Of a DNA stretch of 64,000 nt, positions 16,264-38,236 are shown one piece after another. Within the stretch, counting starts at the first letter, position 1. Every line of letters begins with the position of its first letter. The notes below the pieces were generated by a model that saw nothing but the letters and a program-made list of their open reading frames with translations, did not search any database and had not been told where the DNA came from. The stretch is from NCBI GenBank assembly GCA_046758125.1, contig JBHHZR010000003.1, positions 1,875 to 65,874 on the forward strand, given 5' to 3'. Made by a program: the position numbers and the translations under genes. Source of the DNA: Nitrosopumilus sp. (GTDB lineage: Archaea > Thermoproteota > Nitrososphaeria > Nitrososphaerales > Nitrosopumilaceae).

Positions 16264-17210
16264 TGCCAGAAAGTTTCTTTATTTTATCTAAAGATTATCT
16301 ACAATTAGCAATAGACGAGATAATTGCAGTATCAAAAATGTATGATAGATTTTCTAAAGTAAAAGTAATTTTTAATTTGGTAATAGTTCAATCAAAAACA
16401 AATTGGGAAACAATTGCAAAACGTGCTACATTTGTGAGAACTGCTGGCCAAATTTTAAGAAAAATGTCAGGATTATTCGTAGATGAAGAAAAATTTGAAA
16501 TACTAAAAAATGCCAATACTTTTGTTTGTAGAATTATTAATTTATCATCTAATCAATTTAACATTCCAGAATTAGAAAGTTCTATGGGGGATATGATTTC
16601 AAAATTCTCAAAAGCTAAAGTAAAAATTAAAAATCCAGACATCATCGTTTATCTAATTTTTACTGATAAAGAAAATTTCTTTGGTTTCTCAAAAAAAACA
16701 AAAAGTTCAAAGAGACCAAAAAAACTCAAAAATCATCCTAATGAATTAGATTGGAAGTTATCTAGAATTATGCTTAATTTGATAGGATTAAAAAAAGGAG
16801 AAATTGTTTGTGACCCATTTTGTGGTACAGGAACCACACTTTTAGAGGCGGAATCAATGGGGATTCATGGTATTGGAATTGATTTTAATGAGAAAATGTG
16901 TGAAATGTCAAAGGAAAATCTCAAAGCAAATGGTTTCAAATCAGATGTTTTAGAAGATGATTTTCATAAATTATCTGAAATTTCTGGAAAATTTGATGGA
17001 ATTGTGACTGATATACCATATGGAAGAAACTCTAAAACTAGAAAAGAACCAAAAGAAACTCTGAAAGAATTTTTTTCAATTATTCCTAAAAAGAAGAGAT
17101 TTGCAATAATGTTCAAAAAAGAACTTGGAAATGATTTGAAATTAAAAGGATTAAAAAAATATGAAATCTATAGGCATAAAAGCTTGACAAGGACAATTTT
17201 GATCAAATGA
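16263..17210 (+). CDS. trm11: THUMP + SAM methyltransferase, Trm11/TrmG10-like tRNA m2G10 methyltransferase
   Basis: [13 protein letters not shown] motif I and IVTDIPYG motif IV; THUMP-like N-terminus. Confidence 0.75.
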
Positions 17211-35990: not shown

Positions 35991-36155
35991 ATGTTGTCTG
36001 TACAGGAAAATGAGGTTTTAGTAAAAATCACTTCGGCAGGGACAATCTCTATTCCTAAACAATTTAGAAAGTATATGGATATACAAAAAGGTGAATATGT
36101 CAAGTTGATTTTAGGTAATGGAAGGTTAATTGTTAGAAAAGTCACCATTACTTGA
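35991..36155 (+). CDS. AbrB/MazE/SpoVT-family DNA-binding microprotein (54 aa, absent from the ORF track)
   Basis: My translation: MLSVQENEVLVKITSAGTISIPKQFRKYMDIQKGEYVKLILGNGRLIVRKVTIT, matching the swapped-hairpin G.I.IPK..R....I..G pattern. Confidence 0.85.
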   Translation: MLSVQENEVLVKITSAGTISIPKQFRKYMDIQKGEYVKLILGNGRLIVRKVTIT

Positions 36156-36161
36156 TGGTAA

Positions 36162-36548
36162 TTACGGTTGTTTTTGGCCTATTTTGATAGTTTGATACGT
36201 CCATTCACGTCCAGTTCTTGCTCTGTCTATCCTGCCTTTTGATGAAAATCGGGACAAATAGGTGGATATTATACTGAGTTTTATTGGTTCATTGAATTCA
36301 TCCTCATATTTTTCAAGAATGTTTGTGGAGGTAAACTTGCCCATAGGAAAGAATTTGTCCACAATATACCATACTTTAGAACCTGTTGAATCCATGTTTG
36401 TGGTTTCTTGTTCTTCTTCAATATTCATCAAATCCATCATTTCAAATATTTTGAGAACTTTGTCCCTGGTGACATTACCCTCTAATTTGATGTCATAACG
36501 TGCACCGTCTTGATCTTCCATATCTATTCGAATACGTTTTTTTGCCAT
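36162..36548 (-). CDS. Hypothetical protein with C-terminal winged-helix-like domain
   Basis: FTSTNILEKYEDEFNEPIKLSIISTYLSR...GRIDRARTGREWTY resembles a wHTH recognition helix and wing. Confidence 0.65.
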   Translation of the reverse strand: MAKKRIRIDMEDQDGARYDIKLEGNVTRDKVLKIFEMMDLMNIEEEQETTNMDSTGSKVWYIVDKFFPMGKFTSTNILEKYEDEFNEPIKLSIISTYLSRFSSKGRIDRARTGREWTYQTIKIGQKQP

Positions 36549-36678
36549 CTTTGAGATCTTGAGGATCTGACGTTAACAGTTCAATTGATCCAGTAATGTT
36601 TGTTAACTAAATGGTTTGTTAACATTGACTGCCTAAGCCATGCCTAACTAATTTTTTGTTGTTAACAATTCACTCATA

Positions 36679-36960
36679 AAATCCCCTTTAAATTAGGATA
36701 TTTTATGCCTAGAGTGGAAATAAAGGGGATAAATTTACTATATTCACAACGTTAACATCCATCTTAACGCCTAGAGTGGAAATAAAGGGGATAAAACAGG
36801 TTATTTGGGAAATTTCTTAACAGGAAATTAACATTTTGTTAACTTTTAGGTTAGGAATTAGCTATCTCACACACCAACATTTCCACTAGTATTTTTTAAA
36901 AATTTTTTTAAGAAAGAAAAAACTAACTAAAAATAATTAATTACAAACTAAACTAGAGTT
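36679..36960. other. Probable chromosomal replication origin (oriC) with ORB elements
   Basis: Two identical 27-mers GCCTAGAGTGGAAATAAAGGGGATAAA (36707-36733, 36769-36795) resembling the ORB consensus (..AGTGGAAA..GGGG). Also an inverted G-string ATCCCCTTTA (36681-36690), an inverted mini-ORB TTTCCACTAG (36880-36889) and an AT-rich tract, directly upstream of cdc6. Confidence 0.85.
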
Positions 36961-37033
36961 AGTATTCTATTCTATACTCTCGTAAATTAGATATGGTTAT
37001 GATAAAATTGAGCGGAAACATAGGTGTGTGAGT

Positions 37034-38236
37034 ATGTCTGACCCAATAGATCGATTACTTGATGCGTCAGAATCAGGAAAATCAATTATTAAAAACAGAA
37101 ACATTTTACATTTTACATATATTCCTAACATCATACTACACAGAAACTCTGAACAGGAACAAGTCACTCAATCACTATTACCAATTCTAAAACAATCAAG
37201 ACCTTCTAACCTTCTAGTTTATGGAAAGCCTGGAACTGGTAAAACTTTAGTTGTTAAAAAAGTAATATCAAAAATTCAAGAAAGAGTTGAAAAATCAAAC
37301 TTTCCAATTAAACTTGTATATTCAAATTCTAAAGAAGAGACAACTCTCTATGGTCTTTTGGTGAACCTAGGAAGGCAATTAGGCCTAAATGAAAAGGAAT
37401 TACCTACAACTGGGCTTGCAATAAGCGAAGTCTTCAAAAGACTCCTCAATAGAATAGATGAAGGAAAACTTAATGCAATTTTTGTAATTGATGAAATTGA
37501 TTATCTAGCACAATTAGTTTCTAAAACTGGGAAGGATATTCTCTATCAACTTACAAGAGCAAATGAACGTCTTCAAAATGGCTCCCTTACTTTAGTGGGC
37601 ATATCCAACGATCTCACATTTAAAGAAAAACTAGACCCTAGAGTAATTAGCAGTCTTGGGGAGGAGGAGATTGTCTTTACAAATTATAATGTTGAACAAA
37701 TCAAAAAAATTCTTGAAGAACGAATCCACGAGGCTTTTGTTGGAGGATCTGTTGAAGAACCTGCCCTAAACCTATGTGCAGCTCTAGCTGGTGGAGAACA
37801 CGGTGATGCTCGTAGAGCAATCGACTTAATTCGTGTGGCTGGTGAGATTGCTGAACGACAACAATCCGACAAAGTCACAGAAAACCATGTTAGAGAAGCC
37901 TCTCAAAAAATTGAAGAAAACAAGGAAGAAACATCACTCAAATCATATCCCCTTCATGAGAAATTAGTAATTCTTGCTATTATGAAGGCAAGTGGTTCAT
38001 CCACAGGAGAAATCTATTCTTCATACAAAAATCTCTGTAAAACTGTTGGGCGAGATGAGCTGACCCAAAGAAGAATAACTCAAATGTTAAGTGAAATAGA
38101 ACTATCTGGAATTATTACTGGAAGACTTGTCCACCAAGGAATTCATGGAAGGACCAAGAAATACAAACTTACAGTCTCACCAGAGACTGTAAAAAAAACC
38201 TTCAAAGATGATCTAACTTTGCAAGATATTGTTTGA
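37034..38236 (+). CDS. cdc6: Orc1/Cdc6 replication initiator
   Basis: Walker A GKPGTGKT, Walker B IDEID, GDARRAIDL sensor, C-terminal wHTH. Confidence 0.97.
   Translation: MSDPIDRLLDASESGKSIIKNRNILHFTYIPNIILHRNSEQEQVTQSLLPILKQSRPSNLLVYGKPGTGKTLVVKKVISKIQERVEKSNFPIKLVYSNSKEETTLYGLLVNLGRQLGLNEKELPTTGLAISEVFKRLLNRIDEGKLNAIFVIDEIDYLAQLVSKTGKDILYQLTRANERLQNGSLTLVGISNDLTFKEKLDPRVISSLGEEEIVFTNYNVEQIKKILEERIHEAFVGGSVEEPALNLCAALAGGEHGDARRAIDLIRVAGEIAERQQSDKVTENHVREASQKIEENKEETSLKSYPLHEKLVILAIMKASGSSTGEIYSSYKNLCKTVGRDELTQRRITQMLSEIELSGIITGRLVHQGIHGRTKKYKLTVSPETVKKTFKDDLTLQDIV

What the first reader, a model, noticed from the sequence alone, without database searches (positions are those of the whole stretch)
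36572..36843. Six GTTAAC palindromes interleaved with the ORBs
Seen: GTTAAC at 36572, 36602, 36618, 36661, 36751 and 36838, several as TTGTTAAC, plus near-matches CTTAAC/ATTAAC at about 36763, 36816 and 36827. A rough expectation at 30% GC is about 0.1 per 270 bp. One lies between the two ORBs and one beyond them. The ORB consensus does not explain this motif. Inference: a second class of origin element (protein-binding or methylation sites, analogous to GATC at E. coli oriC).
Basis: partly seen in the sequence, partly recalled or inferred. Interest (0 to 1): 0.62.

Follow-up and report, generated by a model that had tools for sequence, protein, structure and literature searches.

The report
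Second box array in archaeal origin
The six GTTAAC palindromes are real and belong to about ten conserved TTAAC-core boxes woven between the initiator-binding sites of a Nitrosopumilus replication origin, most likely docking sites for a second, undescribed origin protein and not methylation sites.

Summary
Six GTTAAC lie in 272 bp, against 206 in the whole 1.44-Mb genome. No other 300-bp window holds more than two.

The palindrome is not the real unit. The unit is a box with core TTAAC, fuller form (T)GTT[A/C]AC(A). About ten copies flank ORB1, ORB2 and ORB3 of the orc1/cdc6-adjacent oriC.

The box cores are 97% conserved in 22 congeners, against 74% for the other intergenic columns. Arrays recur in nearly all 54 Nitrosopumilaceae sampled. 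In deeper lineages the same positions carry TTCAC/GTGAAC, which is not a palindrome.

This, the conserved ATTAAC and CTTAAC copies, and the lack of genome-wide GTTAAC avoidance argue against methylation.

Where rearrangements separate the neighbouring gene from the origin (13 genomes), the boxes stay with the ORBs.

The best candidate reader is the divergently encoded 128-aa winged-helix protein:
- it is syntenic with orc1 across the order and in much of the phylum;
- box arrays are absent near orc1 in the ten genomes examined that lack it;
- residue 93 of its recognition helix tracks the box's variable base.

A phylogenetically independent test of that last link has no power.

The parts
36162..36548 (-). 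Gene for a 128-aa winged-helix protein (P0001), divergent from orc1/cdc6. It is the candidate reader of the boxes.
   Evidence: ORF. AF2 model: N-terminal beta-hairpin plus helix, then a winged helix-turn-helix with recognition helix 91-103. Foldseek finds MecI/BlaI, ArsR, Fur-DBD and other winged-helix proteins. Weak Penicillinase_R and CopY matches. Divergent from orc1 in 54/54 family genomes. Single copy in 139/161 order genomes and 201/301 phylum genomes.
36555..36590 (.). Three GATC sites (36555-36558, 36564-36567, 36587-36590) between the P0001 start codon and the first boxes.
   Evidence: Read. Conserved in the genus alignment. Across 54 family genomes the mean is 2.06 GATC in the first 60 bp upstream of the gene, against 0.24 per 60 bp elsewhere in the gap. 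A Dam-like D12 methylase is encoded in the genome.
36572..36577 (.). Box S1, ACGTTAACAG.
   Evidence: 95-100% conserved per base in 22 congeners.
36602..36607 (.). Box S2, TTTGTTAACT.
   Evidence: With S3 it forms a 16-bp direct repeat of GTTTGTTAAC.
36618..36623 (.). Box S3, TTTGTTAACA (8-bp palindrome TGTTAACA).
36661..36666 (.). Box S4, TTGTTAACAA. It reads ATTAACA in 18 of 22 congeners.
36707..36729 (+). ORB1 (GCCTAGAGTGGAAATAAAGGGGA).
   Evidence: 32-nt direct repeat D1. 93% conserved.
36743..36748 (+). TTCACA box, the variant that dominates in deep-branching relatives. It reads TTAACA in some congeners.
36751..36756 (.). Box S5, ACGTTAACAT, between ORB1 and ORB2.
36763..36768 (+). Box S6, CTTAACG, abutting the 5' edge of ORB2.
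   Evidence: A TTAAC box directly 5' of an ORB also occurs in families f4, f9 and f15.
36770..36791 (+). ORB2.
36816..36821 (+). Box S7, CTTAACA.
36827..36832 (+). Box S8, ATTAACA, 11 bp from S7 and from S9.
36838..36843 (.). Box S9, TTGTTAACT. With S8 it forms the inverted pair TTAACA-N-TGTTAA.
36866..36889 (-). ORB3, inverted (CTCACACACCAACATTTCCACTAG).
   Evidence: Inverted repeats I1, I18 and I19. 95% conserved.
36890..36960 (.). AT-rich stretch (likely unwinding element and orc1 promoter). It includes the nearly invariant block CTAACTAAAAATAATTAATTACAAACTAAACTA.
37011..37032 (+). ORB4, the inverted partner of ORB3, ending just before the orc1 ATG.
   Evidence: Inverted repeat I1, 22 nt, 82% complementary. 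Conserved.
37034..38236 (+). orc1/cdc6 initiator gene.
   Evidence: Pfam Cdc6_lid, Cdc6_C and AAA domains. The ATG at 37034 is conserved in the genus alignment.

Best explanation
The 479-bp gap between the winged-helix gene (36162-36548, minus strand) and orc1/cdc6 (37034-38236) is the chromosomal replication origin of a Nitrosopumilus species. It has two direct ORBs, plus an inverted ORB pair around an AT-rich stretch.

The six GTTAAC palindromes are the most visible members of an array of about ten short boxes. The core is TTAAC and the fuller form is (T)GTT[A/C]AC(A). The boxes sit before ORB1 (S1-S4), between ORB1 and ORB2 (TTCACA, S5, S6) and between ORB2 and ORB3 (S7-S9, 11 bp apart). 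GTTAAC is a palindrome only because the box GTT[A/C]AC happens to be self-complementary when the variable base is A.

Shown here:
- the boxes are selected cis-elements of the origin;
- they are unique in the genome in their density;
- they keep fixed positions across the genus and recur as arrays across the family;
- they travel with the ORBs.

Inferred:
- They are docking sites for a sequence-specific protein other than Orc1/Cdc6.
- The best candidate reader is the neighbouring 128-aa winged-helix protein. Its recognition helix (LS-x-ISTYLSR, residues 91-103) would read one box per monomer. Residue 93 would select the variable base: Thr with TTCAC, Ile/Val/Leu/Ala with TTAAC.
- Copies bound one helical turn apart, next to Orc1 on the ORBs, would build a higher-order complex on the ORB-bearing side of the origin. 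That complex would modulate Orc1 loading or origin firing.
- Boxes S1-S3, 24-75 bp upstream of the protein's own start codon, would also give autoregulation where gene and origin abut.

Whether it activates or restrains initiation is not known.
For: Enrichment and uniqueness:
- Six GTTAAC against 0.04 expected, and no other 300-bp window in the genome has more than 2.
- The TTAAC pentamer starts 15 times in 300 bp, against a next-best of 6 anywhere in the genome.
- The TTAAC family is the top word at every k in an unbiased scan.

Conservation:
- Box cores are 97% identical in 22 congeners, against 74% for other intergenic columns. None of 10,000 random placements reach this.
- Clusters are present upstream of orc1 in nearly all of 54 genomes of 24 genera.
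- In families f4, f9 and f15, five to eight GTTAAC occur even where the region is 44-51% GC.

The box is not a palindrome as such:
- The logo is T-G-TTAAC-A, with G at only 59%.
- ATTAACA and CTTAACA copies are conserved as such.
- TTCAC/GTGAAC occupies the same positions around the ORBs in families f2, f5, f6, f7, f10, f13, f14 and f19 and outside the order.

Origin element, not a gene operator:
- In 13 genomes where the winged-helix gene is separated from the origin, orc1-upstream keeps 12-19 TTAAC counts together with ORBs.
- In those genomes that were also sampled, the gene's own upstream has 1-6.

The candidate reader:
- It has a winged helix-turn-helix fold.
- It is distantly like BlaI/MecI/CopY, a family whose operators are TACAnnTGTA (PMC7253601 abstract).
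- It is divergent from orc1 in 54/54 family genomes, in order-level relatives and in 13/20 sampled genomes outside the order.
- Box arrays reach 9-13 per 400 bp near orc1 where the protein exists. They reach only 2-7 in ten genomes that lack it but keep an orc1 orthologue.
- Residue 93 is Thr in TTCAC lineages and I/V/L/A in TTAAC lineages. Counts are Thr 1/20/20 and non-Thr 67/2/5 for TTAAC-rich, TTCAC-rich and mixed.
- A second, independent switch occurs inside family f34.
- Of 128 alignment columns, only 56 and 93 satisfy both contrasts.
Against: - No binding data exist.
- The independent-pairs test on the protein tree finds only 5-6 independent changes at residue 93. Box type goes the same way in about 2 of them, the other way in about 0.6, and is unchanged in about 2.6 (median p = 1).
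- There are exceptions: M93 with TTCAC boxes (G205), V93 with TTCAC (G114), A93 with TTCAC-dominant boxes (G234), and family f12, where both V and T forms have mixed boxes.
- TTAAC and TTCAC boxes coexist in several lineages, and in this window (36743). Specificity may therefore be relaxed at that base and not switched.
- Synteny of the gene with the origin, and the co-absence in MAGs (18 of the 20 genomes re-checked that lack it also lack a detectable orc1), could partly reflect assembly gaps at the origin.
- The protein's matches to BlaI/MecI/CopY models are below the curated cut-offs.
- Box counts in AT-rich DNA have a background of about 2-6 per 700 bp.
Confidence: 0.55

Rival explanations
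1. The boxes are protein-binding origin elements, but the reader is some other conserved DNA-binding protein that is not encoded next to the origin. On this view the winged-helix neighbour has a different job, for example as a transcription factor or a replication or segregation accessory without box specificity.
For: - All the evidence that the boxes are selected origin elements applies equally.
- The covariation with residue 93 is not significant once phylogeny is taken into account, and it has exceptions.
- In family f9 and part of f15 the gene is not next to the boxes.
Against: - No other candidate emerged.
- Box arrays are missing near orc1 in the lineages sampled that lack the winged-helix protein.
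- Only two of 128 columns satisfy both contrasts between box types, and one of them sits at the start of the recognition helix.
Confidence: 0.2
2. The boxes are extra binding sites for Orc1/Cdc6. The reader would be either the main initiator in a second binding mode or a paralogue, like the C2 and C3 sites of Sulfolobus origins.
For: - Composite origins with sites for several Orc1/Cdc6 paralogues are established in Sulfolobus (my own knowledge; reviewed in PMC4010727).
- S6 directly abuts ORB2.
- The genome has a second Orc1/Cdc6-like gene at contig C25:3-707.
Against: - The box (TGTTAACA) has no resemblance to the ORB core (CCAGTGGAAA).
- The paralogue is found in only 17 of 161 genomes of the order. 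It is absent from many genomes that keep the array, such as G052, G074, G018 and G043.
- Genomes that keep an orc1 orthologue but lack the winged-helix protein have no box array, and three of them show ORB cores upstream of orc1.
Confidence: 0.12
3. The GTTAAC sites are methylation targets (an HpaI-type m6A methylase) that time or sequester the origin, as GATC and SeqA do at E. coli oriC.
For: - The motif is a palindrome of the kind type II methylases read.
- The genome encodes a beta-class N6/N4 DNA methylase of unknown specificity (C11:40299-40958, DPPF motif).
Against: - Four of the ten boxes are not GTTAAC (TTCACA, two CTTAAC, ATTAAC), yet they are just as conserved.
- S4 is ATTAACA in 18 of 22 congeners.
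- Deep relatives carry the non-palindromic TTCAC/GTGAAC at the same places.
- GTTAAC is not avoided genome-wide: O/E is 0.88, rank 23 of 64 palindromic hexamers.
- The metaepigenome study read here reports AGCT methylation in its two Thaumarchaeota MAGs and GATC through its archaeal MAGs, and does not list GTTAAC among their motifs (bioRxiv 10.1101/2021.05.08.442635).
Confidence: 0.05
4. The boxes are only transcriptional operators or promoter elements for the divergent gene pair (autoregulation of the winged-helix gene and/or control of orc1), with no role in replication.
For: - S1-S3 lie 24-75 bp upstream of the winged-helix gene's start codon.
- The protein's closest sequence relatives, BlaI/MecI/CopY, are autoregulated repressors.
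Against: - When the gene is moved away from the origin, its upstream loses the boxes while the ORB region keeps them.
- Six of the ten boxes lie 190-290 bp upstream of orc1, among the ORBs and not over a promoter.
- The array is the single densest cluster in the genome, so there is no regulon of similar arrays.
Confidence: 0.07

Closest known systems
Archaeal ORB-type oriC next to orc1/cdc6 (Pyrococcus oriC, Sulfolobus oriC1, the N. maritimus origin mapped by marker frequency; review PMC4010727)
   Same: It lies next to orc1/cdc6. It has repeated ORBs with a G-string, an inverted ORB pair around an AT-rich stretch, and is a single origin.
   Different: The reviews I could read describe ORBs and mini-ORBs only. 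They mention no TTAAC/TTCAC box array interleaved with the ORBs. The primary N. maritimus mapping paper (Pelve et al. 2013) is not in the library, so I could not check it.
Composite Sulfolobus origins: C2/C3 sites for Orc1-2 and Orc1-3, and WhiP at oriC3
   Same: A second class of short sequence-specific sites lies inside an origin and is read by a winged-helix-containing protein encoded next to the origin.
   Different: In Sulfolobus the extra readers are Orc1/Cdc6 paralogues or a Cdt1-like initiator. Here the only paralogue is patchy (17/161 genomes). The candidate is a 128-aa single winged-helix protein with no AAA+ domain.
Accessory sites at bacterial oriC (GATC/SeqA, IHF, Fis, CtrA boxes at Caulobacter Cori, Spo0A boxes in Bacillus)
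   Same: Short, multi-copy, non-initiator motifs are interleaved with initiator boxes. They are conserved at orthologous origins and presumably modulate initiation.
   Different: The domain of life and the proteins differ. The methylation variant of this idea is disfavoured here.
BlaI/MecI/CopY winged-helix repressors (Pfam Penicillinase_R; operator TACAnnTGTA)
   Same: This is the best sequence and fold relative of the candidate reader. The half-site ends in ACA, as the TT[A/C]ACA box does.
   Different: Scores are below the curated cut-offs. The extra domain is N-terminal (a beta-hairpin plus helix), not the C-terminal dimerisation and sensor domain. The target is an array of about ten single boxes at an origin, not a dyad operator.
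Plasmid and phage iterons
   Same: Multiple phased copies of one short motif lie beside an AT-rich region and next to the gene of the protein that may read them.
   Different: The boxes are 6-8 bp in mixed orientation, not 17-22-bp direct repeats. They coexist with a separate initiator system (Orc1 and ORBs).

Membership tests
Archaeal ORB-type chromosomal origin | Lies beside an orc1/cdc6 gene | tested here: met
   orc1/cdc6 is at 37034-38236, with Cdc6_lid, Cdc6_C and AAA domains.
Archaeal ORB-type chromosomal origin | Repeated ORBs, including an inverted pair flanking an AT-rich unwinding region | tested here: met
   ORB1 and ORB2 are direct repeats. ORB3 and ORB4 are inverted around 36890-36960. 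They are conserved in 22 congeners.
Archaeal ORB-type chromosomal origin | Replication initiates there in vivo | not testable with these tools
   This is known only by analogy. Marker-frequency analysis mapped a single origin in the N. maritimus chromosome (PMC4010727); that it lies beside cdc6 is my own recollection of the primary paper.
Methylation-site cluster at an origin (GATC/SeqA type) | All functional copies carry the exact methylase target | tested here: not met
   Conserved ATTAAC, CTTAAC and TTCACA copies are present. Relatives carry TTCAC/GTGAAC at the same positions.
Methylation-site cluster at an origin (GATC/SeqA type) | A cognate methylase of that specificity is encoded | tested here: inconclusive
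   One Dam-like D12 enzyme and one beta-class N6/N4 enzyme are present. Their specificity cannot be read from sequence.
Restriction-modification target (HpaI type) | Genome-wide avoidance of the site | tested here: not met
   O/E is 0.88, rank 23 of 64 palindromic hexamers.
Orc1/Cdc6 paralogue sites (Sulfolobus C2/C3 type) | A paralogue initiator co-conserved with the sites | tested here: not met
   The paralogue is present in 17 of 161 order genomes, while the boxes are near-universal.
BlaI/MecI/CopY (Penicillinase_R), for the candidate reader protein | Score above the Pfam or NCBIfam curated cut-off | tested here: not met
   The window's protein scores 15.6 bits against a cut-off of 22.6. 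Seventeen of 25 relatives match at E<=0.05, the best at 1e-7. CopY_TcrY matches are far below its 122-bit cut-off.
BlaI/MecI/CopY (Penicillinase_R), for the candidate reader protein | Winged helix-turn-helix DNA-binding fold | tested here: met
   The AF2 model has pLDDT of about 90 over residues 55-120. Foldseek hits include MecI (1sd7, 1okr, 2d45).
BlaI/MecI/CopY (Penicillinase_R), for the candidate reader protein | C-terminal dimerisation or signal-sensing domain | tested here: not met
   The winged helix is C-terminal. The extra domain is an N-terminal beta-hairpin plus helix.
Iterons | Direct repeats of about 17-22 bp bound by the replicon's own initiator | tested here: not met
   The boxes are 6-8 bp in mixed orientation. 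The initiator system is Orc1 with ORBs.

The most novel reading that the evidence does not exclude
Thermoproteota ancestrally had a two-layer origin. Besides Orc1/Cdc6 on ORBs, a small winged-helix 'origin box protein' encoded at the edge of oriC reads an array of TT[A/C]ACA boxes interleaved with the ORBs.

The pair would be retained in ammonia-oxidising archaea and in many other lineages of the phylum, and lost in about a third of them. Its specificity would be set largely by one recognition-helix residue: Thr for TTCAC, an aliphatic residue for TTAAC. It would be a missing regulator, co-loader or origin marker of archaeal replication initiation.
Probability: 0.35. Interest if true: 0.8.

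Novelty: new variant of a known kind. Interest (0 to 1): 0.64.

Why it matters
Replication control in ammonia-oxidising archaea, among the most abundant microbes in the ocean and in soil, is almost unstudied. Archaeal origins are generally described as ORBs plus Orc1/Cdc6.

Here there is a second, equally conserved layer of cis-elements. It comes with a named candidate protein and a single-residue specificity prediction. That turns the question of what else acts at an archaeal origin into a set of simple binding experiments.

If the protein and box pair is as widespread as the phylum survey suggests (201 of 301 genomes), it would be a general and overlooked component of initiation in a major archaeal phylum. 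It would also be a practical signature for locating origins in metagenome-assembled genomes.

Tried and rejected
- **Second Orc1/Cdc6 paralogue as reader.** Rejected because its distribution is patchy (17/161).
- **Methylation.** I looked for DNA methylases, site avoidance and published methylomes. Nothing points to GTTAAC.
- **THUMP-domain hit in the window.** The PF01555 hit at window 16335-16916 looks, from its sequence, like a THUMP-type RNA methyltransferase. I did not count it as a DNA methylase.
- **Regulon search.** No other locus in the genome has a comparable cluster of TTAAC, TTAACA or TT[A/C]ACA.
- **Independent-contrast test of residue 93 against box type.** There are too few independent changes, so the test is not significant. 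The raw 2x3 table must therefore not be read as a probability.
- **Co-absence of the protein and orc1.** Of the 20 genomes re-checked that lack the protein, 18 also lack a detectable orc1. This probably reflects unassembled origin regions and is not informative.
- **Bacterial promoter scan.** I did not use the sigma-70 scan, because it does not apply to archaea.
- **Primary N. maritimus origin paper.** Pelve et al. 2013 is not in the library. Full-text searches for GTTAAC with Thaumarchaeota, and for Nitrosopumilus with ORB, found no description of these boxes.
- **PDB sequence search with the protein profile.** It gave only marginal winged-helix hits.

Full report
**Observation**

GTTAAC occurs at 36572, 36602, 36618, 36661, 36751 and 36838, as reported. 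The near-matches are CTTAAC at 36763 and 36816 and ATTAAC at 36827.

The window lies in a 1.44-Mb, 33%-GC genome of a Nitrosopumilus species; source names on close homologues say so. The genome holds 206 GTTAAC in all, so 0.04 are expected in 272 bp. No other 300-bp window has more than two. With a crude non-coding background of 0.23 per kb the expectation is still 0.06.

A word scan that was not told what to look for ranks the TTAAC family first at k = 5, 6, 7 and 8. Corrected P values run from 7e-7 to 4e-13, ahead of the ORB words. For the pentamer, the origin has 15 starts per 300 bp against a genome-wide runner-up of 6.

**Setting**

The sites lie in the 479-bp gap between a minus-strand 128-aa ORF (36162-36548) and orc1/cdc6 (37034-38236).

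The gap has the anatomy of an archaeal origin:
- two direct ORBs (36707-36729 and 36770-36791);
- an inverted ORB at 36866-36889;
- an AT-rich stretch;
- a fourth ORB at 37011-37032, the inverted partner of the third, ending at the orc1 start.

**What the motif really is**

I aligned the upstream regions of 22 congeners. Five of the six GTTAAC sites are conserved in position as GTTAAC. The sixth (36661) is ATTAACA in 18 of 22. The CTTAAC, CTTAAC and ATTAAC near-matches, and a TTCACA at 36743, are conserved as such.

The TTAAC cores are 97% identical, against 74% for the other intergenic columns and 89-95% for the ORBs. None of 10,000 random placements of nine pentamers reaches that value.

A logo from 992 oriented sites in 76 origins reads T-G-TTAAC-A. 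The flanking G reaches only 59%. The unit is therefore a TTAAC-core box with about ten copies, and GTTAAC is its self-complementary form.

S7, S8 and S9 are 11 bp apart, S5 and S6 are 12 bp apart, and S2 and S3 are 16 bp apart.

**Depth of conservation**

Among 54 genomes of 24 genera of the family, nearly all have the cluster upstream of orc1: 0-8 perfect GTTAAC and 4-13 TTAAC pentamers.

In the order, families f4, f9 and f15 have the same kind of array. They carry five to eight GTTAAC even where the region is 44-51% GC.

Families f2, f5, f6, f7, f10, f13, f14 and f19 carry TTCAC/GTGAAC boxes at the same places around the ORBs. Typical arrangements are GTGAA-N3-GTGAAC next to the neighbouring gene and TTCAC-N5-TTCAC before and after the ORBs. 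Some lineages mix both forms. The box is thus TT[A/C]AC, and its palindromic look in Nitrosopumilus is incidental.

**Methylation**

Several points weigh against it:
- the conserved non-GTTAAC copies;
- the non-palindromic form in relatives;
- GTTAAC is not avoided (O/E 0.88, rank 23 of 64 palindromic hexamers);
- the metaepigenome study I could read reports AGCT methylation in its two Thaumarchaeota MAGs and GATC through its archaeal MAGs, and does not list GTTAAC among their motifs.

The genome does encode a Dam-like enzyme and one beta-class N6/N4 enzyme of unknown specificity. Methylation therefore cannot be excluded outright. I put it at about 0.05.

**Origin element or gene operator?**

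Two sets of natural rearrangements answer this. In family f9 about 3 kb separates the 128-aa gene from the ORBs where both lie on one contig. In part of f15 the gene and orc1 are on different contigs.

In all 13 such genomes, the 700 bp upstream of orc1 keep 12-19 TTAAC counts next to the ORBs. In those genomes that were also sampled, the gene's own upstream region has only 1-6, which is background. The boxes belong to the origin.

**Who reads them?**

*Orc1/Cdc6.* The box does not resemble the ORB core. A second Orc1/Cdc6-like gene exists (contig C25). It is present in only 17 of 161 genomes of the order and is absent from many that keep the array.

*The neighbouring 128-aa protein.* This is the best candidate.
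- Its model shows an N-terminal beta-hairpin plus helix, followed by a confident winged helix-turn-helix with recognition helix 91-103.
- Its fold and sequence relatives are MecI/BlaI/CopY-type and other winged-helix DNA binders, though below the curated family cut-offs. That family's operators are TACAnnTGTA, loosely like TT[A/C]ACA.
- The gene is divergent from orc1 in 54 of 54 family genomes.
- It is single-copy in 139 of 161 genomes of the order and 201 of 301 of the phylum.
- It still faces orc1 across a 580-830-bp gap in 13 of 20 genomes sampled outside the order. There the gaps contain 9-13 boxes per 400 bp.
- Ten genomes that lack the protein but keep an orc1 orthologue reach only 2-7 boxes per 400 bp.

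*Covariation with residue 93.* Residue 93, at the start of the recognition helix, is Thr in TTCAC lineages and Ile/Val/Leu/Ala in TTAAC lineages. Inside family f34 one genus has Ala93 and TTAAC-rich origins, while two others have Thr93 and TTCAC boxes. Only columns 56 and 93 of 128 satisfy both contrasts.

**Limits of that case**

The covariation rests on about two independent co-switches. A paired test on the tree has no power, with median p = 1. There are exceptions (G205, G114, G234 and family f12). Both box types coexist in many origins, including this one.

Of the 20 genomes re-checked that lack the protein, 18 also lack a detectable orc1. That co-absence probably reflects unassembled origins.

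The direction of the effect on initiation is unknown.

**Novelty**

The reviews and full-text searches available describe ORBs and mini-ORBs, and a single mapped origin in N. maritimus. They do not describe these boxes or the protein. The primary mapping paper could not be read.

Earlier notes of this scan, from other genomes, reached a similar reading. I recorded my own reading before seeing them, and I re-derived and tested each point here.

Accessory site arrays at origins are a known kind of thing. Examples are the Sulfolobus C2/C3 sites, WhiP, and bacterial SeqA, IHF or CtrA sites. This one is a new variant with an undescribed candidate reader.

**Tools**

Transcription starts and read-level evidence were therefore not obtained.

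Noticed in passing
window 36555-36590: Three GATC sites within 36 bp, just upstream of the winged-helix gene's start. They are conserved in most genera of the family: mean 2.06 in the first 60 bp, against 0.24 per 60 bp elsewhere in the gap. Several genera have a further cluster of 4-6 GATC. The genome encodes a Dam-like D12 methylase (C36:11239-11967), and GATC is under-represented (O/E 0.66). This is a closer analogue of GATC at E. coli oriC than GTTAAC is.
   Followed up: partly
genome contig C25:3-707 (outside the window): A second, divergent Orc1/Cdc6-like gene (28% identical to the main one), cut by the contig end. Homologues occur in only 17 of 161 genomes of the order and are 40-63% identical to it, which suggests a mobile or integrated element.
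   Followed up: partly
window 36924-36956: A nearly invariant 33-bp block, CTAACTAAAAATAATTAATTACAAACTAAACTA, inside the AT-rich stretch. It is conserved across 22 congeners more strictly than an unwinding element would need. It may be the orc1 promoter (TATA-like AATAATTAATTA) or another protein site.
   Followed up: no
window 37011-37032: ORB4 ends two bases before the orc1 ATG and pairs as an inverted repeat with ORB3 across the AT-rich stretch. Orc1 bound there would sit on its own 5' leader, which suggests autoregulation.
   Followed up: no
window 36624-36646: A conserved TTGACTGCCTA...GCCTA stretch follows box S3. GCCTA/GCCTG is also the 5' edge of ORB1 and ORB2, so these may be ORB half-remnants or a further element.
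   Followed up: no
genome contig C19: 14171/14193, 21943/21966, 24437/24460: Three pairs of GTTAAC spaced 22-23 bp apart within 10 kb of one contig, in non-coding DNA by a crude ORF mask. Fewer than one such close pair is expected genome-wide. Their flanks are unlike the origin boxes, and no tRNA lies there.
   Followed up: partly
window 35991-36155: A 54-aa AbrB/MazE-type (SpoVT/AbrB-fold) ORF lies tail-to-tail with the winged-helix gene (Pfam MazE_antitoxin, E = 1.4e-9). No partner toxin gene was looked for.
   Followed up: no
window 16335-16916: The PF01555 (N6_N4_Mtase) hit here sits in a 315-aa protein with a D-I-P-Y motif that looks like a THUMP-type RNA methyltransferase. I did not count it as a DNA methylase.
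   Followed up: no
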